A stretch of 33,574 bases of DNA from a virus: the UHGV virus genome UHGV-0219389; one strand, written 5' to 3'. A program made the position numbers and the translations under genes. Shown here piece by piece: positions 20,496-33,132 of this stretch (position 1 is its first letter; each line of letters opens with the position of its first letter). The notes under the pieces were generated by a model that made no database searches, was not told where the DNA came from, and worked only from the letters and a program-made list of their open reading frames with translations.

Positions 20496-20962
20496 TCACG
20501 CCGCCCTCACGATATAGTTAAATGCGATATTGCGGGGGCGAGCTGATACATAAGCCCACCAGTCATATCTTTGTGCACCTTTAGAGGATGCATCAAATAT
20601 CCACTTTTTGCCATTTATGACCCCCAGTTGATTAGAGGTTAAAGCGTCACCAAATCCGTATTGTGTAGAGCCGAGCGAACTGATATCTCCGGTATCATTA
20701 TCATCAAAACCGGATACGATAGTCCCTTCCTGAAATGAAAGTAGCGCACGCCCGGTATCAACCTTGCGACCACCGTCCCATCCACGGATAAACTCACCGC
20801 GCAAATCGGGAAGACGGAGGGTCGGGTAGACTCTGGCCAGAACAGGATATTGTTCTTTGGTGAACGTAGCTCCGTTGCACTGTAACCAGCCTGCTGGCGG
20901 TGTGGCGGTGGGCCACGGAACCGGTACACCAACAGGCAATGCAGAGCCTTCCCCCAAACCAA
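20496..20962 (-). CDS. alternative tail fiber C-terminal segment (Sv'), promoterless
   Basis: Minus-strand frame whose N-terminal 26 aa equal residues of the + strand fiber at the inverted repeat, then diverges; both variants end ...NYIVRA. Confidence 0.7.
20883..20962. repeat. 80-bp perfect inverted repeat, right copy
   Basis: Reverse complement identical to 19358..19437. Confidence 0.9.
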
Positions 20963-20974
20963 CGTTTATCTCTC
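20949..20974. other. gix-like crossover site, right (TTCCCCCAAACC-AA-cgtttatctctc)
   Basis: Inner half-site TTCCCCCAAACC matches the invertase half-site pattern; central AA is the reverse complement of the left-site TT. Confidence 0.55.
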
Positions 20975-21029
20975 AAATCCTCCCCACATTATCTCAGTAC
21001 TTTAACCACTCAAAAGGGAGTATTTTTAA

Positions 21030-21601
21030 TGCTGATTGGCTACATACGTGTGTCAACAAATGACCAAAACACAGATTTGCAACGCAAAGCATTAATGTGC
21101 GCAGGATGTGAACAGATTTTTGAGGACAAAATGAGCGGAACCAAGTCGGAACGTCCAGGCCTGAAACGCGCTTTAAAGTGCCTTAAAAGAGGGGATACAT
21201 TGGTGGTCTGGAAGCTGGATCGGTTGGGTAGAAGAATGAAACACCTCATTGCTCTCACAGAAGAGCTACGCGCAAAAGGTGTCAATTTTCGCAGTCTGAC
21301 GGATTCAATCGATACCAGCACTCCGATGGGAAGGTTCTTTTTTCATATGATGGGTGCACTGGCAGAAATGGAGCGTGAACTGATAGTTGAGCGCACGCTG
21401 GCAGGACTGGCTGCTGCGCGAGCACAAGGGAGAGTTGGAGGACGTCGCCCGAAACTGACGAAGGAGCAGCATGAGCAGATCGCAAGATTGCTCCAGAAAG
21501 GGTATGACAGAAAGCGGCTGGCAATTATCTATGATATTGGACTGTCAACGATCTACCGCTACCACCCTGTTGGGACTGTCATAACGCAACCTGAAATGTA
21601 A
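21030..21601 (+). CDS. gin: DNA invertase (Gin/Pin/Cin/Hin family serine recombinase)
   Basis: N-terminal MLIGYIRVSTNDQNTDLQ catalytic-serine motif and C-terminal HTH; start at ATG 21030 inside track ORF 20900..21601. Confidence 0.85.
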
Positions 21602-21679
21602 TTCTTTTTCAAATAATGAAACGCCGCGTGGATGCCATTTATCGCACAAGATAGAGTGCATTTATCGCGCGGCGCATCA
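21602..21679. repeat. putative Mu-type right end with repeated transposase-binding-like motifs
   Basis: Direct repeats CATTTATCGC at 21636 and 21659, GAAACGCC motif at 21618, sequence ending ...GCGCGGCGCATCA; resembles the Mu right end from memory. Confidence 0.45.
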
Positions 21680-21741
21680 TACAGCCCTTTAGCCTCCAGT
21701 TCTTCCGCTTTGCTGTCTTTAATCATGCTGTACCTCACTGC

Positions 21742-22167
21742 TTAAAACGGTATTCCGTCCCCGTACGGATCATCGTGCTGGCCTGTCTGTTGTTTTGCCC
21801 TGTTCAGTGCGTCAGTAGCCTGGCCCTGCTGGCCTTTTTTGCCGCCCGGTCGCGCCGTTCGCGCACTGATTACGCTGTCTGCGATGACCTGCCAGCCCTG
21901 CCGCGTTTCGCCGTTCTGGCCTGTCCACTGGCTTACCTGCATGTTACCCGCCACGCTCACCAGTTCGCCTTTCTGGTGTTTTGCCAGTGCGTCGGCCTGT
22001 CTGCCAAACGCCAGGACGGATAACCACATCGTCGCCGTTCCGTCATCTGCCTGGCTGCATGGCAGGGGAACCGCCATACTCGCCATCGCCATTTGTGTTC
22101 CCTTGCTGGTGGTCTTTAACTGCGGGTCAGCCACCAGCCGCCCGTAAGCCGCTATCTGTGCTGTCAT
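21742..22167 (-). CDS. SSB-like single-stranded DNA-binding protein
   Basis: 141 aa with Gly/Gln-rich linker and C-terminal acidic tail ending DGIPF, as in SSB (DDDIPF). Confidence 0.55.
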   Translation of the reverse strand: MTAQIAAYGRLVADPQLKTTSKGTQMAMASMAVPLPCSQADDGTATMWLSVLAFGRQADALAKHQKGELVSVAGNMQVSQWTGQNGETRQGWQVIADSVISARTARPGGKKGQQGQATDALNRAKQQTGQHDDPYGDGIPF

Positions 22168-22403: not shown

Positions 22404-24530
22404 TTAATCTTCTTCGCTTTCTGGCTGGAACATCAGCACGTAAAAAACATGCTGCTTCCCCCCAATTTTGCCGAGCGCCTTTTTCTTGTAACGGCGATCG
22501 TTACCCGCTTCCAGCATTCCGGCAGCACTCAACGCGCGGGCAAAGTGAGACGGATTAAATCCCTGTGCTATCTCACCCTCAAATACATGCGGGAACGTGT
22601 AAAAACGGAACTCGTCATCTTCGTTTCTGATACTCCCCTTTCTGTATCCGGCAAGCTCTTTAATCGGTAAATCACGCTCGTCAGAGTTGGGCCAGGGAAG
22701 GTATCTGCTGAATCCGAACGACGCTAAAAAAGCCTCTGCCTGTTCAACCATCTGTTTAAACTCCCTGTTACCCGTGCCGAACTCCTTCACCCAGGCATTA
22801 AAATTATGCTGTATGGCATCGCGGCATTCCTGCTCATCCCAGCCAGTAACATGACCTGAAAGCACAAGCGCGGCCTCCAGTATGGCAAATCGCTCCCCCA
22901 CACGGTGAACCTGTTCGCCGTAGCTCTCCGGTATCAGGTTGCGCCACCGCTCACGGCATGTCCTTACCGTGTCCTTTGCCTCCTGCTGGTGTTCTGCCAG
23001 CCATTTAACCCACTCACGACCCGCCGCCCCGTGATTTGCTGTCCAGGCATCCTTTAACGCGTCTGCGTGCGCCTTTCCGGTGCTGTATTCGTGAAATTGC
23101 GTGGCTTTTTCCATCGGAACGTTAAGCAGGCGGACAAGCTGCCCCGCTTTGACTTTTATCCCCTCCGTTTTGAGGAATGTCTCAACGTCCATTTCTCCGG
23201 TGCTGATTGCCACCGTTCGCCAGTGTTTTATCTCCCTGTTGCCGCCGTCCTTTGCCCCCTGTAATTTCCCGGAACCGTTAAACAGCGTATAGGCTGACGT
23301 GGACACCTCCCGCGCGTTTCCGGCCTGGCCTATTTCATCCAGGGGTAAAAGCCCGTCATTGTGTGCCTCTGCTTCGTTGGCGATACCTAACGCTGTGCCG
23401 TACCAGGTCAGCCGCTGCGCGTCCGGCTCTCCCCATAAACTTGATGCGATGTTCTGCGTTGTGGTCTTACCTGCCGATGACTGTTCGAAAAGATGTACCC
23501 CGAAGCCGTCAGCGCCCACCAGCCCGATTAATGGTGCGGATAACGATACCGCCACCCCCAGCATCATGGACGGATTACCACCAGCCAGTCGCGCCACGGT
23601 GTCGCGCCAGCCCTCCGCCGTTCCTGCCACGGAATAGCCATTAACAGCAGCAGTTTTTCCGGTAAACAGGACTGGCTTTTCGCAATCACCAATGACCGAA
23701 CCGTCCGGCATGATGTACGCGCCAAAATGCCAGCCCGTTGTTGTGCTTAACTGCCATTCCTCATGGCTTCCGCTTAACTGCATCCAGTCAGCCAGGATTG
23801 CCCTGTATTTACCGTTGGTTGTTACGTTCAGTCCGTGGTCTTTCAGCAGCCGCCAGCCGTCACGGTCGCCAATGCCACCGCACGGAACCGCCATTGTGAT
23901 GACTTCATGATTTGCTGGCTTTTTCCAGCGCATCACGCGGTAATGTTCTTTGCCGATTGTCCCCGTTCCCAGCAGTTCAAGCGGGGAACATAACCACGTC
24001 TCAGGCCGGATAATTTCGCCTGACTGCTTGTCCACTTTTGGCGTAACCCAGAAAACACCATCGGCGCGGCTTTCAACGCGGGGCTTTAATTCATCATCAC
24101 CCGGGCTTTCTGTGATTTTTTTCTTTAAGGGCAACACCAGACTTTCCCCGCGCTCGTATTCGTCTTTGAGGCGAGGCAACTGGTCGGATAAATCCGCCGG
24201 GCTGGTGTCAGTTATCCCCGCGTATTCGTATACGGTCTTCACGCCAGCCACAGCCAGCAACGTGACGATCTGTGTAAGGCTACGTTCAGTGATGTGCCCT
24301 GCGCGGTAAATACGCACACACTGACGGCTATCATCAATAATTTGATAACCGGTAATATCTTTCAGGTGTTCATCTGACAGAACGACAGGCGGCACATTGT
24401 CGGCGGCAATATGCTTACCTGCCCATTCCTGCCACTCTTTCGCATGGCTCCACGCATCACTACCCGCAAAGATGATAACCTCCGTCATTTTGTCGGCTGG
24501 CTGGTGCTTTAAGTTTGGTGCGCGCTTCAT
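22404..24530 (-). CDS. primase-helicase-like replication protein (P-loop NTPase)
   Basis: 708 aa with P-loop-like FEQSSAGKTT; placed beside the iterons as replication initiators are in P4-like and PICI-like elements. Confidence 0.55.
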   Translation of the reverse strand: MKRAPNLKHQPADKMTEVIIFAGSDAWSHAKEWQEWAGKHIAADNVPPVVLSDEHLKDITGYQIIDDSRQCVRIYRAGHITERSLTQIVTLLAVAGVKTVYEYAGITDTSPADLSDQLPRLKDEYERGESLVLPLKKKITESPGDDELKPRVESRADGVFWVTPKVDKQSGEIIRPETWLCSPLELLGTGTIGKEHYRVMRWKKPANHEVITMAVPCGGIGDRDGWRLLKDHGLNVTTNGKYRAILADWMQLSGSHEEWQLSTTTGWHFGAYIMPDGSVIGDCEKPVLFTGKTAAVNGYSVAGTAEGWRDTVARLAGGNPSMMLGVAVSLSAPLIGLVGADGFGVHLFEQSSAGKTTTQNIASSLWGEPDAQRLTWYGTALGIANEAEAHNDGLLPLDEIGQAGNAREVSTSAYTLFNGSGKLQGAKDGGNREIKHWRTVAISTGEMDVETFLKTEGIKVKAGQLVRLLNVPMEKATQFHEYSTGKAHADALKDAWTANHGAAGREWVKWLAEHQQEAKDTVRTCRERWRNLIPESYGEQVHRVGERFAILEAALVLSGHVTGWDEQECRDAIQHNFNAWVKEFGTGNREFKQMVEQAEAFLASFGFSRYLPWPNSDERDLPIKELAGYRKGSIRNEDDEFRFYTFPHVFEGEIAQGFNPSHFARALSAAGMLEAGNDRRYKKKALGKIGGKQHVFYVLMFQPESEED

Positions 24531-24841
24531 TTTGCCTTTCTCCGTTCACGAATAATTTCACGTACTGCCTTAATGCGTTCCATACCTGTAACGCGCATGA
24601 TTCTGTCGATGTCGCTTAAGTTCGCTGGTGGTGCTTTGCTTACCAGGGTGAATTCACTCTCAAAACGCATATGTGACGACACGCAGGGATGCGCATAACC
24701 TTCGCGGATATAGGTCACGCGAAAATCATCGACGGTTTTAATCGTTATCGTGCTGCCGTATTTATCCTGGAAAATATCGCCGGGGCGGATTTCAGGCCGA
24801 GCGGAGCCGCTGGCAGTAAAGCCAGAATTTTTCTTTTTCAT
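24527..24841 (-). CDS. hypothetical protein, coupled to the primase gene
   Basis: 104-aa ORF overlapping the primase start by 4 bp. Confidence 0.45.
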   Translation of the reverse strand: MKKKNSGFTASGSARPEIRPGDIFQDKYGSTITIKTVDDFRVTYIREGYAHPCVSSHMRFESEFTLVSKAPPANLSDIDRIMRVTGMERIKAVREIIRERRKAK

Positions 24842-24847
24842 GTTTTT

Positions 24848-25066
24848 TTACTCCAGAGGCCGCTTTTTAGCGAAGAGTTCAATATCAGATGTCAGAGAAA
24901 CCTGTGTATTTGCCAGGTCTAACAACAAAGAAATAAGAATTTCCTCTCTGCTATCTGATTTATCGGTGCTAAGGCTGTTCATCCACATATTGACGACTTC
25001 CCTGATTTTTTTCGCAGAGTGCATGGCTTCAAATGCCAGGTCTTCAATATCATGTTTATTTCGCAT
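24848..25066 (-). CDS. hypothetical small protein
   Basis: Internal ATG of track ORF 24848..25132, chosen to limit overlap with the upstream gene. Confidence 0.35.
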   Translation of the reverse strand: MRNKHDIEDLAFEAMHSAKKIREVVNMWMNSLSTDKSDSREEILISLLLDLANTQVSLTSDIELFAKKRPLE

Positions 25067-25268
25067 AATCGCCCCCGCGTAACTGGTCTGCACTAACACC
25101 CGATTTAGTGAGCATTTCAGAAAATCCCGCAAGAGTGCTGATAAATTCGTTTTCCATTAAACGGCACTGGCATTTAACCCGGCCTTTTTCCAGATACACC
25201 AGTACGCACCCCGTATAATCTGACGGCACATTCAGCACTACAGATAAGTGCGCTTCATTATTATTCAT
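25056..25268 (-). CDS. hypothetical small protein
   Basis: 70-aa ORF in the same operon. Confidence 0.35.
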   Translation of the reverse strand: MNNNEAHLSVVLNVPSDYTGCVLVYLEKGRVKCQCRLMENEFISTLAGFSEMLTKSGVSADQLRGGDYAK

Positions 25269-25497
25269 GGCTCACCACCTCCATATCAGCCATGATAATT
25301 TTGCTGGCCTCATTCAGTGCCATATCAGCACTAAGTTGCATTACAGCCAGTGAATGAGGAACGAAAGCCCCGGCATATTCTGTTTCGCTGGTGGCGTGCT
25401 TATGCGCCTTGTCTGCGATAACAGAAATATCAATCAGCGCGTGCATCAGCGTTTTGATGGCTTCGGCGGCTGCGTCCGGACGGGTGTTATTGCACAT
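25261..25497 (-). CDS. hypothetical small protein
   Basis: 78-aa ORF overlapping its neighbours at both ends. Confidence 0.35.
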   Translation of the reverse strand: MCNNTRPDAAAEAIKTLMHALIDISVIADKAHKHATSETEYAGAFVPHSLAVMQLSADMALNEASKIIMADMEVVSHE

Positions 25498-25693
25498 GGA
25501 GCACCCCCTGACGAATACGGGCGGCGAATACCATCACGCAGCCAGCCGGGGATTGCTGGCGTGCTTCCTGTTCGCTGGTGGCCACGATGTGAATCACGCG
25601 CGGTTGTGCGGTGCTCAGGGCGATAAAACGCCAGATGTATTTATTCAGGTTGTGCGAGTCCCGCCCTTGCGGGTGTGTGGTATGATTTCTCAT
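25487..25693 (-). CDS. hypothetical small protein, first gene of the leftward operon
   Basis: 68-aa ORF from ATG 25693 with GAGG RBS; this is the C-terminal part of the 301-aa track ORF, whose upstream part crosses operator palindromes. Confidence 0.4.
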   Translation of the reverse strand: MRNHTTHPQGRDSHNLNKYIWRFIALSTAQPRVIHIVATSEQEARQQSPAGCVMVFAARIRQGVLHVQ

Positions 25694-25770
25694 AGCTACC
25701 TCGATACTCTTGCTATCGTTGGTGGTTAGACGCCCTGCATGTGTTGCGAGCACTGCGGGGCGTTGCTTAA

Positions 25771-25826
25771 TTTGAGTGACAAAACTCAAACTGTGCGCAC
25801 AGATTAAAATCATGTGTGCGCACATG
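25771..25826. promoter_or_regulatory. divergent promoter/operator region with palindromes
   Basis: TTTGAGT-N6-ACTCAAA at 25771-25790; perfect palindrome TGTGCGCACA at 25792-25801 and again at 25815-25824; half-site TGTGCGC near 25862. Confidence 0.6.
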
Positions 25827-25898
25827 TCAATACTTAACATCTCATTTTTTTTGCTGTATTGTGTGCGCCCATAAAGTCCATTTAAGTGAGGTGCATCA

Positions 25899-26096
25899 AT
25901 GTCTAGCGGTAACACAAACAACAAATCAGCAAAGAAAAATATTCGATTCCCACATGAGCTTATAGATGGGATTGATGCCAGCGTTGAACAAGAAAAATTA
26001 ACTAATCCTAGTGCTAATTTTTCCGCATGGGTCTTAGATGCCTGTGGACGCAAATTAAAATATGAACAGCGCCGGAAGGCCAAAGAATCAGAATAA
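25899..26096 (+). CDS. ribbon-helix-helix (Arc/Mnt-like) putative repressor
   Basis: 65 aa; segment KNIRFPHELIDGIDASVEQEKLTNPSANFSAWVLDAC has the beta-strand/helix/helix pattern of Arc (RWPREVLDLVRKVAEENGRSVNSEIYQRV, from memory). Confidence 0.5.
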   Translation: MSSGNTNNKSAKKNIRFPHELIDGIDASVEQEKLTNPSANFSAWVLDACGRKLKYEQRRKAKESE

Positions 26097-26138
26097 TCAC
26101 TATCAGCGCCGTGGTGTGAGTAACTACGGCGCATTGCT

Positions 26139-26327
26139 ATGCAGGACAACACAATGACCGATAAAGAATTGACCAAAACATTATCACCGACACGGAAAAG
26201 ACGGCGCAGAAAGATAGAGCATGAATCAGAAAGATTCGCACCTTGTTCGTTTGCTCTTGAGAAATTCCTTAAAGAGCGCAGGAAAAAGCTCTCGTTGCAA
26301 ACCTTGGAACGAACCAAATCTGACTGA
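26139..26327 (+). CDS. hypothetical basic protein
   Basis: 62-aa Lys/Arg-rich ORF downstream of the RHH gene; weak RBS. Confidence 0.25.
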   Translation: MQDNTMTDKELTKTLSPTRKRRRRKIEHESERFAPCSFALEKFLKERRKKLSLQTLERTKSD

Positions 26328-26460
26328 TCACATTGCCCACCAGCCGCAAATGTGGCATTGTTGGTGATGCTTTTGTTTTCCCTTGTTCCCACTGGCTACC
26401 CTTTTGCGGTCGCCTTTGTTTTGCCTGTTATCCGGCAATAGTGGCGCTTCGTCACCTGTC

Positions 26461-26549
26461 TGATATAATTCCACTGCTTATATTCATTTTTTGCGCAGTA
26501 GGTTAATTGTTCGCAAGGGCGCTCCGGCAACGGGGCGCTTTTTGTTTTT
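26461..26549 (+). ncRNA. candidate small RNA (extended -10 promoter to intrinsic terminator, about 70 nt)
   Basis: TGaTATAAT at 26461-26469; stem-loop TTGCG..CGCAA; terminator GCGCTCCG-GCAA-CGGGGCGC + TTTTTGTTTTT at 26519-26549; no ORF with RBS between. Confidence 0.35.
26519..26549 (+). terminator. intrinsic terminator (8-bp stem, GCAA tetraloop, U-tract)
   Basis: GCGCTCCG / CGGGGCGC stem with one G-U pair, followed by TTTTTGTTTTT. Confidence 0.6.
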
Positions 26550-26707
26550 ACCCACCAGCACAATAAAAATCTTCATTTTCCATTTTTGTAAAATTTCATG
26601 CTTTCCGGACGACTGGTCATATGTCATTTTTTAGCAGAAGATTTTGCCTTGCTGGTGGGTAGCTTCCCGGTCAACACGATGTACCGTATAATCAACACCG
26701 CGTGTGG

Positions 26708-27292
26708 TTACTGAATACGCTCACCAAAGTAAAACTCAGGCTGGTATTCACGTATCAGCCTTTTTTCTTCTTCCTCCAGCTCACGCTTTTTGCGCTTACA
26801 TGCCTGTAGCTCCCTCCCCTTCTCGCTGGCACTTATCTGATATTGCTCTTTGCGGCGGGAAAAATCCTGTAATGCGCCCCACGGGATACCATAAGCCCCC
26901 GTTTTTCTGATACCCGGTATCACATTTCTGAATACCCAGTTACTGAAACGATGGGCGAACGTGCCAGGAGTAGCAGCTTTGCGACTTCTGGCAATCAGCT
27001 TGTAAAAGCCAGATTCAGAAACGACGCTATGATTTGGATTTCCGCGAATACCGTAAGTTAAAGTTACGGTATTACTTTCATCATCATCCAGAGCTTGCAA
27101 CGCCATGCGTGAATTGGATAATTCAAGCGCCGCACAAACATCCTTTGCAACAAACCACGGATCGCCGTTCAGATACACCACACGAACATCCACGCCATCA
27201 AAACGTAGAACGACCTGATCACGAATATCGCAGAATTTTTTCACTGGACGTGCATTCCCCTTGCCCATCATGGCAATATTTTTATTCATCAC
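26708..27292 (-). CDS. Bro-N domain antirepressor-like protein
   Basis: N-terminal motif DGDPWFVAKDVCAALEL characteristic of Bro-N; 194 aa; GAGG RBS. Confidence 0.65.
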   Translation of the reverse strand: MMNKNIAMMGKGNARPVKKFCDIRDQVVLRFDGVDVRVVYLNGDPWFVAKDVCAALELSNSRMALQALDDDESNTVTLTYGIRGNPNHSVVSESGFYKLIARSRKAATPGTFAHRFSNWVFRNVIPGIRKTGAYGIPWGALQDFSRRKEQYQISASEKGRELQACKRKKRELEEEEKRLIREYQPEFYFGERIQ

Positions 27293-27308
27293 TTTCTACC
27301 TCACATAC

Positions 27309-27336
27309 AAAAAACCCCGCATTGCGTGGTGCGGGG
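27309..27336 (-). terminator. intrinsic terminator after the AlpA-like gene
   Basis: Minus-strand stem CCCCGCA / TGCGGGG followed by TTTTTT. Confidence 0.55.
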
Positions 27337-27346
27337 TTGTCGGTAA

Positions 27347-27625
27347 TTACTTATTGGCGTTTTTGTATGGGCTGTTTACTTCCTTTACTCCTGGCGGATG
27401 CATAACCCACCAGAGCACATCAGAGAGCAACCAGGAAACAGACACTTTCCCTAAATGAGCACGAGCAGGAAATGCTCCCTCCTGTTCAAGTACCCAACGT
27501 CTGCTTCTTGAAAGCCCGGTACGATTGGCACACTCATGTTCGCGTATACGGCGATCATACGGTTCGCCATGCTCTTTCAGAATCTGAATGCGTTCTTCGG
27601 GTGTAGGATAAATAAATTTTTGCAT
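27347..27625 (-). CDS. AlpA-family HTH regulator
   Basis: Start at internal ATG 27625 (MQKF...) with AGGTGA RBS; TGLSRS..W HTH pattern. Confidence 0.55.
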   Translation of the reverse strand: MQKFIYPTPEERIQILKEHGEPYDRRIREHECANRTGLSRSRRWVLEQEGAFPARAHLGKVSVSWLLSDVLWWVMHPPGVKEVNSPYKNANK

Positions 27626-27637
27626 AAAAATATCACC

Positions 27638-27665
27638 TATAAAAAAACCCGCCAAAAGACGGGTT
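27638..27665 (-). terminator. intrinsic terminator-like hairpin between the two AlpA-like genes
   Basis: Minus-strand stem AACCCG / CGGGTT followed by a 7-nt U-run. Confidence 0.45.
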
Positions 27666-27688
27666 GATTATATCTCATTTAATTTAGC

Positions 27689-27910
27689 TCAGGGTTTCCA
27701 TTCACCCTTTACCCATTCCAGCACCTCAGATAAGCGCCAGACTTTTGTTTGTGGGCCAATACATATTTTTCGTGGAAATTTTCCTTCCTTTTCAAGTAAC
27801 GATCTGTGTCTCCTGCCAAGAGCGGTTAACCATGCACATTCATCTTCCTTAATCATCCTGTCGATTGTTTTATCATTTTCAAGTTCTTCACGCGTAACTA
27901 TTTGAATCAT
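27689..27910 (-). CDS. excisionase/AlpA-like HTH protein
   Basis: Small ORF overlapping the integrase 3' end; AlpA-like pattern (ECAWLTALGRRHRSLLEKEGKFP). Confidence 0.5.
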   Translation of the reverse strand: MIQIVTREELENDKTIDRMIKEDECAWLTALGRRHRSLLEKEGKFPRKICIGPQTKVWRLSEVLEWVKGEWKP

Positions 27911-29111
27911 TACCGTCACCACTAATTAGCTTATTCAGATAGTCATACCACCAATTCATAGCTTCTTTTTTTCTGTCCATATACTGGCTTCTGTTATAAA
28001 CCCCGGCAACACCGCCTAATGTGTGCCCAAGCAACTGTTCAACCACATTATGTTCAAAACCATGATCACTTAGCTTTGTGGCAAACACTCTTCGCATATC
28101 ATGCGCCGTCCATTTCTCCGAGTGTTTCATCCTTTTCCATGTCTTACCGATAGTTACGCTTGCCGTACACTGACGCATATCAAACCCAATCACATTTTCT
28201 TTGTTACCTGTTATTTTTTTTAACGTAACTAACCAGTTAAACATGCCATCAGGAATCGGTCTGATTATTTCCCTGCCATTTTTGCTATGATCAGCGGGAA
28301 CGCGCCATAATTTCTTATCAAAATCCCACTCTCCCCAGGAGGACAGTAATACTTCTGACAGTCGACAACCAAAAACTACCAGGAAACGTAAAATAATTCG
28401 GTTTTCATATGATAATTCGTGATTGTCATAATCAGTATTAATACTTCGCCATAAATCTCTGATTTCATCATCTGTTAAAACCCTGCTTCTTCGCGCAGAC
28501 TTTTTTCCCACATCACAGACCTCAAGATCATCAATTTCATGACTAATCGCGTATTTTCTTACCCGACAAAATTTAAGCGCCTGTTTTGATATACGCAACA
28601 AAGCTCCGGCCTGTACAGGTGCTACTTTTTTTATTTTGTCAAAACACTTGATCCACATAGATATAGAGCAATCACTAAGTGGTACATGACCAATCACCGG
28701 ATAAATATGTTTACCAAAGCACTGCCTGATATGTTCTGCTCCCCTACGCTTATCCATTGCATAATTATCAAGCCAGTATTCAAGTGCCTCACGAACGGTA
28801 ACAGGTTGCAAGGTGGCTTCCCGTTCAATTTTTATCTGAATCCGTGGATCTCTGCCCTCCGCAAGCCAGGTTCGACACTGATCGCGCATCTCTCTCGCTG
28901 ATTTGAGACTCAGATCAGGATATTTCCCAAGTGTCAGCCAGATGGGCGCGGTTCCCCTTCCCGCCAGTCTGTAAAAGAAAACAAAACTAACACATCCGTA
29001 TTTACTGACCCGTACCGAAAGCCCGTTACCATCAGCGATGGTTTCCTGCCTCTCACTCCTGCGCCCAAGCAGGGAACGAAGTTTTTTATCGCTCAGTTTG
29101 TTTAGCGCCAT
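27888..29111 (-). CDS. int: tyrosine integrase (P4-type)
   Basis: N-terminal MALNKLSDKK...GNGLSVRVSKYG resembles P4-family integrase; C-terminal HDMRR...LLGH...Y catalytic region; start taken at ATG 29111. Confidence 0.85.
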   Translation of the reverse strand: MALNKLSDKKLRSLLGRRSERQETIADGNGLSVRVSKYGCVSFVFFYRLAGRGTAPIWLTLGKYPDLSLKSAREMRDQCRTWLAEGRDPRIQIKIEREATLQPVTVREALEYWLDNYAMDKRRGAEHIRQCFGKHIYPVIGHVPLSDCSISMWIKCFDKIKKVAPVQAGALLRISKQALKFCRVRKYAISHEIDDLEVCDVGKKSARRSRVLTDDEIRDLWRSINTDYDNHELSYENRIILRFLVVFGCRLSEVLLSSWGEWDFDKKLWRVPADHSKNGREIIRPIPDGMFNWLVTLKKITGNKENVIGFDMRQCTASVTIGKTWKRMKHSEKWTAHDMRRVFATKLSDHGFEHNVVEQLLGHTLGGVAGVYNRSQYMDRKKEAMNWWYDYLNKLISGDGNDSNSYA

Positions 29112-29116
29112 GTGAT

Positions 29117-30310
29117 TTATAACCCGTTTTTGCAATACACAGTGCAATACACAAATGATGAAAACAGCCAGAACCTTCCAGAAAAAACAAAAACGACGAA
29201 CAAGAAAAAATCTTTTTCTTTCATTTGGTTACTAAAAAAATCAGGACAGGTCGCACTGTTGTTACGGCGTGATGTTACTTTCTTGGTAAAAAAATTCACC
29301 CGCGCAGAGACCTGCTCCTTCGCTTTTTTCGCCAGACGACGCAGATCATCCCAGCGTTTACAGATGCCCAGGCCAGGATTCGCTTTCTGCCAGACCGTTT
29401 CATCAAACGGATCATCTCCCTCATCAAGCGTGTAAATGATCGCAAAGTAAGAGTCGTCTTTTACAGCGCCCTCCACGTCGCTGTTATAGCCTCGCAATAC
29501 CTTGATGGCGTAATCACGCTGCTCGTAACAAATCCCTTCCTTGTTAAAGCCAGCCGTGGTGATACCAAATAACAGGGACTGCAGACGGGCACCGGTTGCC
29601 GTTTCCAGAACGTCCCACACGTCGCGGGTTTTATGTGCATGCAGCTCATCAATAATGGCGCAGTGGATGTTCAGACCGTCCAGGTTGTTTGCATCCGAGG
29701 AAAGCGGTTCAAATTTTGATGCGCTCTGCTCCTGGTAAATCGCCAGCTTGTTGAAATCAAACAACCGCCCGAGTGTCGACCGGGCTTTTCTGACCATATT
29801 TTTGGCGTCTTCAAACACGATTCTGGCCTGGTCAAGCGTGGTTGCGGCTGAATACACCTCAGCTCCGCCTTCACTATCTGCCCCCGTCATATACAGACCG
29901 ATACCCGATGACAGGGTTGATTTTGCGTTTTTACGGGCAACTTCGTTGTATGCTGTCCGGAACCGGCGCACCATCACCGGGCGTCCACTGCCATCGCTGC
30001 GCATGACAACTTCCCCGGTTTCTTCATTCACCAGCGGAATGACAAAACCAAAAATATTAATGAGGATAAACACATGCCAGTCCATCAACTCAATGGGCTG
30101 ACCTGCCAGCGCCCCTTTCACATGGGGTACAAATTTGTAGAAATTAAGGATGTGCTGTGCACGAGGTTCACTGAAATAAATCCCCCGCTCTTCGCCGTAC
30201 TTCAGATCATCAAGAAAACGCTGGCAGGCCAGACGGACAAATTCGCCAGCAACAATTTCTCCTGCAACAACACGTTCGGCGTAGCGGATCCCGTCAGCCA
30301 CTTTTGCCAT
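29117..30310 (-). pseudogene. terminase large subunit, 3'-truncated (ATPase domain only)
   Basis: terL-like sequence through about residue 340 (..WQKANPGLG..), then low-complexity tail from AT-rich DNA abutting the integrase start. Confidence 0.65.
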
Positions 30311-30792
30311 CAGTCTCTCGCTTTTAAAAGCTCTGCCAGCGGATCAACATCATCCGGTCCGGCGGTATTTACTTTCGCCCGGCTTGCCGGTGACATACCA
30401 AACTCTGCAAGCATCGCCCGAATCCGCTTCCAGGCATCAGCCTTCATCGCAGCAGCCGGGTGTGCCTTGATCAGCACATCGCCATTCTGCGTTTTCGTGC
30501 GGTAGGTATAACCCTCAACATCGAGTATTTCGCAGTGATGCCGGTATTCGGTGTAGGCTTCCACCAGTAACTCGAGCGCACGTGCATCGAGCTGAGAAAT
30601 GATCCCTTCCGCATTCAGCTCTTCCGCCATTCGCCTGAACCAGTACTTCCCCTGCGCCCCTAAATGTTGCGGAATTTTAGGGAGACCTTTTTCATCCTTT
30701 TTAGCGGTTTTTTTGAGGTCTTTAACTGGCCGCTTTGAGGGGTTGCCTCGTATCAAATGCAGGCGTGGCGGGATTTTCGGGGGTCCAGACAT
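30310..30792 (-). CDS. terminase small subunit (P27-family-like)
   Basis: 160-aa ORF with stop overlapping the terL start; position between HNH and terL. Confidence 0.65.
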   Translation of the reverse strand: MSGPPKIPPRLHLIRGNPSKRPVKDLKKTAKKDEKGLPKIPQHLGAQGKYWFRRMAEELNAEGIISQLDARALELLVEAYTEYRHHCEILDVEGYTYRTKTQNGDVLIKAHPAAAMKADAWKRIRAMLAEFGMSPASRAKVNTAGPDDVDPLAELLKARD

Positions 30793-30939: not shown

Positions 30940-31290
30940 TCAATTGATGCGTTCGCGCGCTGTTTTTGCTTTATGACAGGGCCAGCACAGACTCTGCAGG
31001 TTACTGTCTGCATCCGTGCCACCATGAGCTTTCGGAATGATGTGGTCCACAGTTCTGGCTTCAACGGCTCTCCCATTGCGCAGGCAGTTCTGACACAGAT
31101 GATTATCACGCTTCAGTATGCGCGCACGTATGGCATCCCATTTCGAGCCATAGCCACGCTGGTGGCGGCTCAGTCCGCGTTGATGCTGTACCCATCCTTC
31201 GCCACGATGTTTATCGCAGTAACCAGAACTGTCTGTGGTTGTACCTGCACATCCACGCTTACGGCAGGCGCGTGGGATTCGTGGGGGCAT
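30940..31290 (-). CDS. HNH endonuclease
   Basis: Motif CQNCLRNGR...DHIIPKAHGG...NLQSLCWPCH; start at ATG 31290 (MPPRIP) with GGAG RBS. Confidence 0.8.
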   Translation of the reverse strand: MPPRIPRACRKRGCAGTTTDSSGYCDKHRGEGWVQHQRGLSRHQRGYGSKWDAIRARILKRDNHLCQNCLRNGRAVEARTVDHIIPKAHGGTDADSNLQSLCWPCHKAKTARERIN

Positions 31291-31410
31291 ATGTACTCCA
31301 ATGAAGAAGCCACCGACATAGCCTCCTCCATTCATAGTGAAACTATTTTCATCTACCCAGTAATGAATTCTTTGTAGAGTTGTGATCAATACAACTCACT
31401 AATGGAGAGG

Positions 31411-32140: not shown

Positions 32141-32602
32141 CTATCTGCACTGCTCATTAATATACTTCTGGGTTCCTTCCAGTTGTTTTTGCATAGTGAT
32201 CAGCCTCTCTCTGAGGGTGAAATAATCCCGTTCAGCGGTGTCTGCCAGTCGGGGGCTGGTTGCATTATCCACGCCGGAGGCGGTGGTGGCTTCACGCACT
32301 GACTGACAGACTGCTTTGATGTGCAACCGACGACGACCAGCGGCAACATCAGCGCGCAGAGTTTCATTTTCAGCTTTCGCATTGGCTAATTCTCTCGAGT
32401 ACTTTGCATCGAGTGCAGCAACATCACGCTGACGCTGCTGCATGTCAGCGATGGTGGCGATCGCCTGCTTCAGCTCACTGACTTTTTTATCACGCTGTTC
32501 TTTGTAGGCGATGGCGTTATCACGGTAATGATTGACCGCCCACGACAGGCAGACGATGATGCAGATAACCAAAGCATAAATAATCGCGGCGACTCTGCTC
32601 AC
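32141..32602 (-). CDS. Rz: i-spanin Rz
   Basis: N-terminal transmembrane segment and coiled-coil periplasmic domain, near-identical to lambda Rz as remembered; probable GTG start at 32602 overlapping the endolysin stop. Confidence 0.8.
32200..32382 (-). CDS. Rz1: o-spanin Rz1 lipoprotein, embedded in Rz in the +1 frame
   Basis: 60 aa, lipobox VVGC, proline-rich KPPPPPAW, ends ..SPSERG, lying entirely inside Rz. Confidence 0.85.
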
Positions 32603-33132
32603 TGCTCTATCCCCCAACAGGCTAATGCGCTTTCCTGGTCACGACGAATAACCTGTCCATAGCAGTTATTTGAACGTATGCGGCAATCGCGCCCACCATC
32701 TTTTATCCACCAGCGAATCGCCTCGCATGCGCCCTTACGATCACCGGCATTCAGCCGCTTATAAAACGTCGACGGGAAACACTTACCGGGGCCAATGTTA
32801 TAGGGACAGAATGACGCTATACCCGCTTTTTGTGGTTCGGTCAGTGGTACTTTAATATTGCGCTCCACCCATGCCAGCGCCTTATCACGCTCAATGGCGT
32901 TGACCTGGTCGCATTTTTCCTTCGACAGTTTCATACCGGGAAAAACGGGTTTTCCATCCACCATCGTGGCACCCCGACAGATGGTCCAGATGCCGGACCC
33001 ATCGCGGTATGCCGTTGTGTGGTTACCTTCTTTTTCATCCAGAAACTGGTCGAGAATATCAGGCGCGGGCGCACCGACGGCAATCAGTGCCAGAACGGCA
33101 GCCGACAGGCCGTATCTGATTTTTGCGTTCAT
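32599..33132 (-). CDS. endolysin (lysozyme), SAR-type
   Basis: 177 aa with N-terminal weakly hydrophobic segment [16 protein letters not shown]; resembles prophage RrrQ/RrrD-type lysozymes from memory. Confidence 0.8.

What the first reader, a model, noticed from the sequence alone, without database searches (positions are those of the whole stretch)
24527..25693. Operon of five tightly coupled small ORFs upstream of the primase gene
Five ORFs of 68, 78, 70, 72 and 104 aa overlap each other at start and stop (overlaps of 8 to 11 bp, and 4 bp with the primase gene) and are read from the operator-controlled promoter. None has a recognisable catalytic domain. In satellites such compact cassettes often encode helper-interference or derepression functions.
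Basis: partly seen in the sequence, partly recalled or inferred. Interest (0 to 1): 0.4.

Follow-up and report, generated by a model that had tools for sequence, protein, structure and literature searches.

The report
Five-gene leader of satellite replication operon
The five small genes are real and conserved: they open the replication operon of a phage satellite island common in E. coli, beginning with a cell-division-inhibitor-like gene and ending with a small regulator-like gene fused by overlap to the replicase, so the finding is a genuine but largely ordinary member of a known kind of element whose three middle genes still have no known function.

Summary
The five ORFs exist as described, on the minus strand: 25487-25693, 25261-25497, 25056-25268, 24848-25066 and 24527-24841. 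Their junctions are 11, 8 and 11 nt overlaps, then a 6-nt gap (not an overlap), then ATGA with the DUF927 replicase. All are conserved, with dN/dS of 0.2-0.45 and no broken homologue.

ORF68 is Icd-like. It is homologous to phage P1 Icd and to the C-terminal Kil/Eta domain of satellite P4. ORF104 is DUF4222, the RgdR family, and is modelled as an SH3/Tudor-like barrel. ORF78, ORF70 and ORF72 belong to three families that recur in shuffled combinations between Icd-like and DUF4222 in 88 related loci.

The island is a Gram-negative PICI embedded in a prophage terminase gene (HE-PICI). The promoter carries three palindromic operators. Twelve variants of the divergent YlcI/YnfO-like gene each pair with their own operator repeat.

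I read the cassette as the P4-left-operon equivalent: a repressor-gated, translationally coupled early operon. None of the five resembles known derepression or capsid-redirection proteins. A same-architecture locus in ECOR61 causes phage-triggered growth arrest. This is a new member of a known kind, of modest interest.

The parts
25487..25693 (-). ORF68, an Icd-like / Kil-like small protein and the first gene of the operon
   Evidence: It matches NF033153 phage_ICD_like at 5.5e-20 and phrog_6196 and phrog_1743. It is 37% identical to P1 Icd over 43 aa, E 4e-7. The P4 Eta/Kil C-terminal domain hits the same NF033153 and phrog_1743 models. dN/dS is 0.32 over 52 comparisons.
25261..25497 (-). ORF78, a helical small protein of cassette family F1
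   Evidence: It matches phrog_5146 at 2.4e-38 and phrog_2512. Family F1 is present in 65 of 88 loci and is sometimes duplicated. dN/dS is 0.33. It has no Pfam, PDB or PADLOC match.
25056..25268 (-). ORF70, a beta-hairpin plus helix small protein of cassette family F3
24848..25066 (-). ORF72, a helical small protein of cassette family F2; in the 66 loci that carry F2 it is the last middle gene before DUF4222
   Evidence: Close homologues (at least 93% identical) occur in 27 loci. BLASTP to other F2 subtypes gives 3e-6 to 3e-4. Only 8 representatives were found among 1.84 billion proteins. dN/dS is 0.44, but on few substitutions. It matches phrog_2196 only weakly.
24527..24841 (-). ORF104, a DUF4222 (RgdR-family) protein whose stop overlaps the replicase start (ATGA)
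22404..24530 (-). Replicase (DUF927 'primase' of PICI nomenclature), the last large gene of the unit
   Evidence: It matches PF06048 at 5.4e-46 and phrog_1139 DNA primase at 7e-174. Its N-terminal ~100-160 aa are shared with the RepA-type (AAA_25) and D5-type replicases of related islands.
25803..25830 (-). Sigma-70-like promoter of the operon: -35 TTGACA (25825-25830), 16-nt spacer, -10 TTTAAT (25803-25808)
   Evidence: Read directly from the sequence. A TTGAC(A/G)- or TTGAA-type -35 next to the first operator copy recurs in all but one (L086) of the 13 promoter types shown. The consensus scan did not call it, because the scan requires A at position 2 of the -10.
25790..25872 (.). Three operator copies of the TGTGCGCACA palindrome: between -35 and -10 (25811-25826), over the predicted start site (25790-25802), and at the divergent ylcI-like promoter (25860-25872)
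   Evidence: Found by the repeat finder as family D1 and pairs I1, I2 and I4. Each of 12 YlcI-like variants carries a different repeat at the same positions.
25730..25763 (-). Covarying leader hairpin
   Evidence: It is present in the MFE fold of the leader (z = -3.95). Seven of its 12 pairs show changes on both sides. For the two leader helices together (19 pairs), 92% of cells are paired, against 26-41% when the partner is slid; helix 1 alone is 87.4% paired. No shuffle out of 500 reached the observed value.
25699..25722 (-). Invariant hairpin CC-AA-CGAUA-N7-UAUCG-A-GG whose 3' arm contains the ORF68 Shine-Dalgarno GAGG
   Evidence: The stem is identical in 33 of 33 distinct leaders while the loop varies. 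It is part of the MFE fold. Sequestration of the SD is an inference.
25899..26096 (+). Divergent YlcI/YnfO-family gene, the candidate repressor of the operon
   Evidence: It matches NF041551 at 3.5e-16, DUF3950 and phrog_949. Its variants co-vary with the operators. DNA binding was not tested.
26139..26327 (+). A 62-aa basic ORF downstream of the ylcI-like gene
   Evidence: It matches phrog_21027 at 2e-13. PGAP annotates a gene at this position in L008 and L011.
25487..26392 (-). Long open frame in phase with ORF68. It runs through the leader, the promoter and the antisense of the ylcI-like gene, and in this window it is cut by TAG at 26396-26398.
   Evidence: Shown. In the ylcI-icd spacer, frame 0 has 0 stops in 12 of 13 promoter types, against 71 and 80 stops in the other two frames, and 0 of 2000 shuffles matched this. 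Every relative matched here that spans this position has TCG where the window has TAG. The amino-acid sequence matches no protein family.
26708..29147 (-). Upstream part of the island: Bro-N antirepressor-like gene (26708-27292), two AlpA genes (27347-27655 and 27689-27922) and a tyrosine integrase (27888-29147)
   Evidence: Shown.
21742..22167 (-). SSB gene, the last island gene before the island is interrupted
   Evidence: It matches PF00436 at 3.8e-16. Homology to the intact island L001 ends at window position 21680.

Best explanation
The five ORFs are the promoter-proximal part of the early (replication) operon of a Gram-negative phage-inducible chromosomal island. They are the counterpart of the left operon of satellite P4 (eta/kil - epsilon - orf151 - orf106 - alpha).

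Transcription starts at a sigma-70 promoter that is covered by palindromic operators. These are probably bound by the divergently encoded YlcI/YnfO-like protein. Transcription can presumably also enter from the upstream int-alpA-bro genes.

Once the promoter is open, one mRNA is translated by termination-reinitiation across 8- and 11-nt overlaps. The replicase is therefore made only after ribosomes have passed the five small genes.

The first product is an Icd/Kil-like protein, which most likely arrests host cell division while the island replicates. Its ribosome-binding site sits in a conserved hairpin, which should keep basal expression low.

The last product is a DUF4222/RgdR-type SH3/Tudor-like protein with a basic tail. 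It is probably a low-specificity nucleic-acid- or polymerase-binding accessory factor that acts with the replicase or on transcription.

The three middle genes are interchangeable accessory modules drawn from a small pool of families. Their targets are unknown.

What is shown: gene reality, the homologies, operon architecture, operator/repressor co-variation and the leader structure. What is inferred: division arrest, repression by the YlcI-like protein, coupling as a gate on replicase synthesis, and any role for the middle ORFs.
For: - Gene reality: the ORFs, their Shine-Dalgarno motifs and their overlaps are present. dN/dS is 0.2-0.45 and no homologue is broken.
- Conserved architecture: Icd-like, then 1-5 small ORFs, then DUF4222, then a replicase. 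At least partial matches occur in 1950 of 5426 complete E. coli genomes. The full pattern holds in 88 of 96 fetched loci, with only 6 middle families and stereotyped 8- and 11-nt overlaps. The DUF4222/replicase ATGA junction is present in 87 of 87 loci, whichever of three replicase types follows.
- ORF68 homology: it is related to P1 Icd and to the P4 Eta/Kil C-terminal domain through NF033153 and phrog_1743. The P1 record annotates icd as an inhibitor of cell division apparently required for expression of ant. The P4 left operon has the same 8-nt overlaps.
- Regulation: promoter and operators; 12 YlcI-like variants each with a matching operator; the leader fold and its covariation.
- Satellite context.
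- Experimental analogue: in ECOR61, growth arrest needed the Icd-like gene. Suppressor insertions fell in it and in the two small ORFs after it, and all six linked genes including the primase were needed for reconstitution.
Against: - There is no transcript, protein or phenotype data for this element.
- ORF68 shares only 37% identity over 43 aa with P1 Icd, and the mechanism of Icd itself is unknown.
- Co-variation between DUF4222 and the replicase N-terminus is weak (rho 0.2), so a specific partnership is not supported.
- The three middle ORFs have no informative homologue or fold match. They are unrelated to the ECOR61 middle ORFs.
- ORF72 has little sequence diversity, so purifying selection on it is weakly documented.
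- The island in this window is interrupted by another prophage just after SSB, and the long upstream frame is broken. This copy may therefore be partly defective.
Confidence: 0.7

Rival explanations
1. The cassette is a helper-manipulation module. One or more of the small proteins would derepress the helper prophage, as P4 epsilon does, or interfere with helper packaging or capsid size.
For: P4 epsilon, which derepresses the helper, lies at the equivalent position between kil/eta and alpha. Some related islands carry Ash-domain and C4/isrK modules just upstream of the Icd-like gene. The middle ORFs are mosaic and fairly fast-evolving, as expected for genes in conflict with phages.
Against: None of the five ORFs matches the Derepression family (PF25738), Phage_ASH, Sid, Psu or the terminase-redirecting proteins, even at E of 1 or below. 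BLASTP and phmmer against P4 epsilon, ORF151 and ORF106 gave nothing significant. In Gram-negative PICIs the capsid and packaging genes lie in the late zone downstream of the replication genes (PMC10111431). This island is embedded in its presumed helper, so helper derepression in trans is not obviously needed.
Confidence: 0.15
2. The cassette is primarily an abortive-infection or superinfection-exclusion device. A phage protein would trigger its expression or activity, and the Icd-like protein would act as the toxic effector that stops the infected cell.
For: In ECOR61 a locus with the same architecture (an Icd-like gene, small ORFs and a primase; six linked genes) arrested growth on expression of phage accessory gene orf24. 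The Icd-like gene was required. P4 prophage likewise killed cells on Abc1 expression, and the authors suggest kil as a possible cause.
Against: There is no PADLOC hit for any gene of the unit. The ECOR61 effect was muted when reconstituted and needed all six genes including the primase. That fits plain induction of the satellite's early operon as well as it fits a dedicated defence system. The ECOR61 middle ORFs belong to other families than the window's. Conserved coupling to the replicase in 87 of 87 loci argues for a primary role in the island's own life cycle.
Confidence: 0.25
3. The biologically relevant role is host regulation as a moron. ORF104, like RgdR, would chiefly reprogramme host virulence and motility genes, and the other ORFs would be incidental.
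For: RgdR (DUF4222, O157 OI-51) activates LEE1 and type III secretion and represses motility. Deleting the island reduced colonisation (PMC3378721; PMC10877973). PerC-family regulators sit in the same islands.
Against: DUF4222 is present in LEE-negative strains and in other genera. It is always translationally coupled to the replicase. The window variant lacks R20 of the RGD motif, a residue whose substitution changes RgdR activity. RgdR bound DNA non-specifically, so the LEE effects may be side effects of a general activity.
Confidence: 0.15
4. Some of the five ORFs, in particular ORF72, are not genes but chance open frames.
For: ORF72 has only 8 representatives among 1.84 billion proteins. 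Its close homologues are all at least 93% identical, so dN/dS rests on about 5 non-synonymous and 3 synonymous changes. Its PHROG match is weak.
Against: ORF72 is intact in all 27 loci that carry it. It has an SD and a coupled start. It belongs to a positional family found directly upstream of DUF4222 in 66 of 88 loci, with BLASTP E of 3e-6 to 3e-4 between subtypes and a shared W-L/helix pattern. RefSeq annotates it.
Confidence: 0.05

Closest known systems
Left (early) operon of satellite phage P4: eta/kil - epsilon - orf151 - orf106 - alpha
   Same: The position is the same: after int and the alpA/vis homologue, and ending in the replicase. The first gene product carries the same Icd-like domain (NF033153, phrog_1743). 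Successive small ORFs overlap by 8 nt. In relatives of the window a long frame in phase with the short kil-like ORF spans an internal promoter, as described for the nested eta and kil genes.
   Different: The window has no C4/CI or isrK-like immunity RNA. These are found in P4 and in L010. It has a divergent YlcI/YnfO-like protein gene with operators instead. ORF78, ORF70, ORF72 and ORF104 have no detectable homologue in P4. The replicase is DUF927-type, not P4 alpha. The element has no sid, delta or psu.
immI operon of phage P1: c4 RNA - icd - ant1/ant2
   Same: ORF68 is homologous to Icd. In both, icd is a short first cistron overlapping the next gene, and its ribosome-binding region is under RNA-level control. 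In P1 the C4 target b2 lies just upstream of icd. In the window a local hairpin contains the SD.
   Different: The downstream genes are unrelated: an antirepressor in P1, small ORFs plus a replicase here. The window has no C4 RNA.
ECOR61 prophage-encoded growth-arrest locus (Silas et al., bioRxiv 10.1101/2023.04.06.535777)
   Same: It comprises an Icd-like gene followed by tightly packed small ORFs, within a set of six linked genes that includes a DNA primase. Gene sizes and junctions match the L005/L009 type of the same cassette family.
   Different: Its two transposon-hit middle ORFs correspond by size to families F5 and F4. These show no relationship to the window's F1 and F3. The ECOR61 sequence itself could not be fetched, so the correspondence is inferred from annotation, gene sizes and order.
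RgdR (ECs1581) region of O-island 51 / CP-933C in E. coli O157:H7
   Same: The cassette type is the same: Icd-like - three small ORFs (F3-F1-F2) - DUF4222 - replicase - SSB - PerC. ORF104 aligns with RgdR along its full length at 39% identity.
   Different: The O157 island has a RepA/AAA_25 replicase, is integrated in the chromosome and orders the middle genes differently. The window protein has PGD rather than RGD and a different C-terminal tail.
Helper-embedded PICIs (Tommasini, Mageeney and Williams 2023, PMC10111431)
   Same: The island lies inside, and co-oriented with, a lambdoid prophage terminase large-subunit gene. It shows the four-zone order integration - Bro - replication, then late.
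   Different: That study placed the small ORFs among the hypothetical families and did not analyse them. In this window the late zone is cut off by a Mu-like prophage.

Membership tests
Icd-like / P4 Kil-Eta C-terminal domain (NCBIfam NF033153) | Sequence match to the family model above its curated cut-off | tested here: met
   ORF68 scores 71.2 bits against a cut-off of 25, E 5.5e-20. The P4 Eta/Kil ORF scores 73.9 bits on the same model. P1 Icd aligns at 37% over 43 aa, E 4e-7.
Icd-like / P4 Kil-Eta C-terminal domain (NCBIfam NF033153) | Short first cistron of an immunity-controlled operon that overlaps the next gene | tested here: met
   There is an 11-nt overlap with ORF78 and an operator-covered promoter upstream. 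P1 icd overlaps ant1 by 4 nt.
Icd-like / P4 Kil-Eta C-terminal domain (NCBIfam NF033153) | Inhibits host cell division or kills the cell when expressed | not testable with these tools
   This is known for P1 Icd from the record annotation and was reported for the ECOR61 homologue. It requires expression of ORF68 in cells.
DUF4222 / RgdR family (Pfam PF13973) | Match to PF13973 above the gathering score | tested here: met
   ORF104 scores 66 bits against a cut-off of 27, E 2.2e-18. It aligns with ECs1581 along its full length.
DUF4222 / RgdR family (Pfam PF13973) | RGD tripeptide at residues 20-22, which gave RgdR its name and affects its activity | tested here: not met
   The window has P20-G21-D22. 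G21 and D22 are invariant in the 10-sequence alignment A1. In the 49-sequence alignment A3, D22 is invariant and G21 is nearly invariant. R20 is not conserved, and P20 is the majority residue in this subfamily. The protein is therefore a family member, but the RgdR-specific activity cannot be assumed.
DUF4222 / RgdR family (Pfam PF13973) | Activates LEE1 / type III secretion and represses motility | not testable with these tools
   This needs reporter assays. PMC3378721 shows that natural variants differ in this activity.
Gram-negative PICI | Unidirectional int - alpA - replicase (pri) core of satellite size, without a full set of virion and lysis genes | tested here: met
   The integrase, two AlpA genes, Bro-N, the DUF927 replicase and SSB all lie on the minus strand. 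The RefSeq annotation of the 97.8% identical island is.
Gram-negative PICI | Induction and packaging by a helper phage | not testable with these tools
   This needs induction and transduction experiments.
Helper-embedded PICI (HE-PICI) | [quoted passage not shown] | tested here: met
   A TerL fragment (ATPase domain plus the first 68 positions of the nuclease domain) ends at the int gene. TerS, HNH, Rz, lysozyme and Bor lie beyond it. All but Bor (+ strand) are on the same strand as the island. This is consistent with site A:Terminase_1:245 of PMC10111431. The exact site number was not verified.
Helper-embedded PICI (HE-PICI) | Both att sites and the other half of the interrupted late gene are present, so that excision restores the gene | tested here: not met
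   Island homology stops at 21680, inside a perC-like gene, where a Mu-like prophage begins. The distal part of the island and the TerL C-terminus are not in the window, so completeness of this copy cannot be shown.
P4-like satellite | [quoted passage not shown] | tested here: not met
   There is no such gene in the window part of the island. The replicase has no significant similarity to P4 alpha.
P4 epsilon / Ash helper-derepression proteins | Match to Derepression (PF25738) or Phage_ASH (PF10554) | tested here: not met
   None of the five ORFs hits either family at E of 1 or below. P4 epsilon and the P4 Eta N-terminus hit them strongly as positive controls.
C4/CI antisense-RNA immunity (Rfam RF01695, RF01394) | A C4 and/or isrK-like RNA just upstream of the Icd-like coding region | tested here: not met
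   There is no hit in the window at the gathering threshold, nor at E of 10 or below in 24300-27500. Both RNAs were found at the expected place in P4 and in L010.
Known anti-phage defence systems (PADLOC-DB) | Match of any component to a defence-system model | tested here: not met
   There were no hits for the five ORFs, the replicase, the YlcI-like gene, the 62-aa ORF, Bro-N or SSB.

The most novel reading that the evidence does not exclude
The Icd-like ... DUF4222 cassette would be a modular, phage-sensing growth-arrest switch carried by a large fraction of enterobacterial satellites. The interchangeable small ORF families (F1, F3, F2 and others) would set which phage or helper signal releases the Icd-like toxin and the replicase. 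Control would be exerted by a previously undescribed protein-based immunity system: YlcI/YnfO-type repressors in at least 12 specificities that replace the P4/P1 C4 RNA. This would be combined with a translation-dependent read-through frame spanning the promoter and a conserved leader RNA hairpin.
Probability: 0.15. Interest if true: 0.7.

Novelty: new member of a known kind. Interest (0 to 1): 0.38.

Why it matters
About a third of complete E. coli genomes carry at least part of this cassette type, with up to seven places per genome. It also occurs in Salmonella, Citrobacter, Enterobacter, Kosakonia, Serratia and Rouxiella. Yet three of its five gene families have no assigned function.

Its two bracketing genes have been linked experimentally to cell-division arrest or phage-triggered growth arrest (Icd-like) and to virulence and motility regulation in EHEC (RgdR). 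Knowing what the cassette does in the satellite life cycle would show whether those phenotypes are side effects of satellite induction.

The regulatory region also offers a compact and testable system. It contains many repressor/operator specificities, a frame kept open across a promoter, and a covarying leader hairpin.

For this particular window, however, nothing departs from the common pattern.

Tried and rejected
- Rfam search for C4, CI or isrK RNAs in the window found none, although P4 and L010 were positive.
- PADLOC gave no hit.
- Sequence searches of the PDB with ORF104, ORF68 and ORF78, and with profiles of the ORF70 and DUF4222 families, gave nothing significant.
- I suspected from a shared PGE/DIY..F.REF pattern that P4 ORF151 is a distant DUF4222. 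hhalign gave a probability of 0.9%, so this is rejected.
- I tested whether the window's middle ORFs are related to each other or to the ECOR61-type families F4 and F5. hhalign probabilities were all below 1%, so this is rejected.
- I tested whether DUF4222 co-evolves with the shared replicase N-terminal domain. Spearman rho was only 0.2, no better than expected from linkage, so this is not supported.
- The genome-contig scan with the DUF4222 alignment returned only 4 loci. The IMG/VR scan was the productive one.
- A single-sequence search for ORF70 homologues gave only 6 proteins. A family alignment was needed.
- My first ORF-chaining heuristic mis-assembled the cassettes and was replaced.
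- The amino-acid sequence of the long frame upstream of ORF68 matches no protein family beyond a Bro-N fragment, or an Ash domain in some relatives. I therefore do not claim a functional long protein, only that the frame is kept open.

Full report
**Observation.** The region 24527-25693 holds five consecutive minus-strand ORFs of 68, 78, 70, 72 and 104 codons, followed by a 708-codon gene.
- Each ORF starts with ATG and is preceded by a Shine-Dalgarno-like motif.
- Three junctions overlap, by 11, 8 and 11 nt. ORF104 and the large gene share ATGA.
- RefSeq annotates the same genes in near-identical islands.

**Are the ORFs genes?** I collected 96 related loci: 11 from complete E. coli genomes, 4 from other genera, 80 from IMG/VR, and the window itself.
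- No homologue of any of the five ORFs carries an internal stop.
- Median dN/dS against the window copy is 0.32 (ORF68), 0.33 (ORF78), 0.22 (ORF70), 0.44 (ORF72) and 0.27 (ORF104).
- ORF72 is the weakest case, with only nine distinct sequences, all at least 93% identical. It does belong to a family (F2) of about 72-77-aa helical proteins. These sit directly upstream of DUF4222 in 66 of 88 loci, and BLASTP E-values between subtypes are 3e-6 to 3e-4.
- A full scan of 1.84 billion representative proteins found only eight relatives of ORF72, so its family is narrow.

**What the ORFs are.**
- ORF68 matches the NCBIfam Icd-like model (5.5e-20). It aligns with phage P1 Icd at 37% identity over 43 residues (E 4e-7). 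The P1 record describes icd as an inhibitor of cell division apparently required for expression of ant.
- The same NCBIfam and PHROG models match residues 85-132 of the old 'cI ORF' of satellite P4, which is the C-terminal part of Eta/Kil. ORF68 is therefore the counterpart of P4 kil. This also explains the misleading PHROG label 'transcriptional repressor'.
- ORF104 is a DUF4222 protein (2.2e-18). The characterised member is RgdR (ECs1581) of O157 O-island 51. RgdR activates LEE1, represses motility and binds DNA non-specifically (PMC3378721; PMC10877973).
- ORF104 aligns with RgdR end to end at 39% identity. G21 and D22 are conserved, but it has proline instead of the functionally important R20.
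- ORF78 (phrog_5146), ORF70 (phrog_340) and ORF72 have no Pfam, NCBIfam, PADLOC or PDB relatives.
- The ORF70 model is a beta-hairpin plus helix (pLDDT 73.5) and has no fold match.

**Architecture across relatives.**
- Between Icd-like and DUF4222, related islands carry one to five small ORFs drawn from only six families. Three families dominate: F1 (ORF78-like, 65 loci), F3 (ORF70-like, 47 loci) and F2 (ORF72-like, 66 loci, always the last middle gene).
- The window's order F1-F3-F2 occurs in 12 loci, and F1-F2 is the commonest order.
- Junctions are stereotyped, with 105 eight-nt and 79 eleven-nt overlaps.
- DUF4222 overlaps the replicase by ATGA in 87 of 87 loci.
- This holds although the replicase may be DUF927-type, RepA/AAA_25-type or D5/SF3-type. 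All three types share an N-terminal domain of about 100-160 residues.
- The families are unrelated to one another by profile comparison.
- At least partial matches to the region occur in 1950 of 5426 complete E. coli genomes. The near-complete five-ORF version occurs in 40.

**Context.**
- The island runs int, AlpA, AlpA, Bro-N, a remnant ORF, then a divergent YlcI/YnfO-like gene plus a 62-aa ORF, then the five ORFs, the DUF927 replicase and SSB.
- It is inserted in, and co-oriented with, the terminase large-subunit gene of a lambdoid prophage. That prophage's TerS, HNH and lysis genes follow.
- This is the helper-embedded PICI configuration described by Tommasini et al. (PMC10111431).
- On the other side the island is cut 47 nt into a perC-like gene by the end of a Mu-like myovirus prophage.

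**Regulation.**
- Upstream of ORF68 lies TTGACA-16 nt-TTTAAT. There is one copy of a TGTGCGCACA palindrome between the hexamers, one over the predicted start site, and a third at the divergent promoter.
- In relatives the YlcI-like protein falls into 12 sequence groups. Each group is associated with its own repeated operator sequence at the same positions. This is the classic signature of repressor/operator immunity types.
- P4 and one relative (L010) instead carry C4 and isrK-like RNAs at this place. The window has none.
- The roughly 100-nt leader folds into three hairpins (z = -3.95).
- The middle hairpin (25730-25763) is supported by compensatory changes in 7 of 12 pairs, and no shuffle out of 500 matched it.
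- The last hairpin (25699-25722) is invariant in its stem, variable in its loop, and includes the ORF68 Shine-Dalgarno sequence.

**An unexpected feature of the control region.**
- The ORF68 reading frame stays open far upstream of its ATG. In the ~200-nt spacer between the ylcI-like start and the ORF68 start, frame 0 has no stop in 12 of 13 promoter types that are less than 80% similar. The other two frames hold 71 and 80 stops, and 0 of 2000 shuffles matched this.
- In annotated relatives the open frame begins at or near the end of the upstream alpA or Bro/Ant gene.
- This mirrors the nested eta/kil genes of P4. In P4, translation from the upstream gene through an internal promoter prevents premature termination (summary in PMC10111431).
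- The encoded sequence matches no protein family. Ribosome transit, rather than the peptide, may be what is selected.
- In this window the frame is broken by a TCG-to-TAG change at 26396-26398 that none of the matched relatives spanning this position shares.

**Mechanism.**
- I conclude that the five ORFs are the promoter-proximal cistrons of the island's early/replication operon. The operon is gated by a YlcI-type repressor and translated by coupling, so that the replicase follows the small proteins.
- ORF68 most likely arrests division. ORF104 is a small nucleic-acid- or polymerase-binding accessory factor. The middle three are interchangeable accessory modules of unknown target.
- The nearest experimental evidence is the ECOR61 locus of Silas et al. 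It has an Icd-like gene, small ORFs and a primase, six linked genes in all. It arrests growth when a phage accessory protein is expressed, and suppressor insertions fell in the Icd-like gene and the two ORFs after it.
- By gene sizes and order, ECOR61 corresponds to the L005/L009 type of the cassette. Its middle ORFs belong to other families.
The broader idea that the cassette acts in phage-satellite conflict remains open.

**Verdict.** This is a real, conserved operon of a known kind of element. Two of its five genes are assignable to named families and three are still unexplained. The interesting material lies mostly in the control region and in the cassette's abundance, not in anything peculiar to this copy.

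Noticed in passing
window 27888-30310 (island end at about 29112-29150): The satellite island is inserted inside, and co-oriented with, the terminase large-subunit gene of a lambdoid prophage. TerS is at 30310-30792, HNH at 30940-31389, Rz at 32141-32617 and lysozyme at 32599-33132. This makes it a helper-embedded PICI of the kind described in PMC10111431.
   Followed up: partly
window 16-21679, junction at 21679/21680: A Mu-like myovirus prophage occupies this stretch, with a Mu-type portal at 1479-2975, sheath, baseplate J, tail fibre and a Gin-like invertase at 20900-21601. It ends with ...GCGCATCA exactly where homology to the intact island begins, 47 nt into a perC-like gene. This suggests three nested mobile elements: prophage, satellite, then a transposable phage. 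The other end lies outside the window.
   Followed up: partly
window 25694-26392 and related loci: The ORF68 reading frame is kept free of stop codons through the promoter/operator region in 12 of 13 unrelated promoter types. It continues antisense through the ylcI-like gene, as with the nested eta/kil genes of P4. The peptide itself matches no protein family.
   Followed up: partly
window 26396-26398: A TAG codon interrupts that long frame. All matched relatives that span this position have TCG here. The same base lies in a GC-rich hairpin (GGCGACC...GGTCGCC followed by a T-run on the + strand) that looks like the terminator of the ylcI-like operon.
   Followed up: partly
window 25730-25763: The ORF68 leader contains a hairpin with compensatory substitutions in 7 of 12 pairs across 33 distinct sequences. 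Its function is unknown and it has no Rfam family.
   Followed up: yes
window 25699-25722: A hairpin with an invariant stem and a variable loop includes the ORF68 Shine-Dalgarno sequence. It may limit translation of the Icd-like gene.
   Followed up: partly
window 25790-26096 and 48 related loci: Twelve sequence variants of the YlcI/YnfO-like protein each pair with a different repeated operator sequence at the same promoter positions. This suggests a protein-based immunity system with many specificities, occupying the place where P4 and P1 use the C4 RNA.
   Followed up: yes
window about 24050-24530 (replicase N-terminus); L002:10453-10760; L003:3714-4130: Three different replicase types (DUF927, RepA/AAA_25 and D5/SF3) share a homologous N-terminal domain of about 100-160 residues. 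The domain has no Pfam family and always follows DUF4222 with an ATGA overlap.
   Followed up: partly
window 26139-26327 (+): A 62-aa highly basic ORF lies downstream of the ylcI-like gene. It matches phrog_21027 and is annotated in some relatives. Its function is unknown.
   Followed up: no
window 27347-27655 and 27689-27922: Two AlpA-family genes lie in tandem next to the integrase. Typical E. coli PICIs have one (PMC11773190 notes a second, differently placed copy in EcCIMP1).
   Followed up: no
L004:3206-3571, L011:2985-3350 and similar: The ORF70 family domain occurs as a tandem two-domain protein of about 120 aa in some islands, and twice per cassette in others.
   Followed up: no
protein P0206 (1253 aa): A long protein with seven stretches resembling ORF72 residues 7-55 (E 2.5e-4) and no Pfam domain. 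This may be only helical-repeat similarity.
   Followed up: partly
L001:1-1943 (NZ_OZ501612.1): In the near-identical island, the genes after PerC are major capsid, prohead protease and portal, in that order on the island strand. This is the reverse of the usual portal-protease-capsid order.
   Followed up: no
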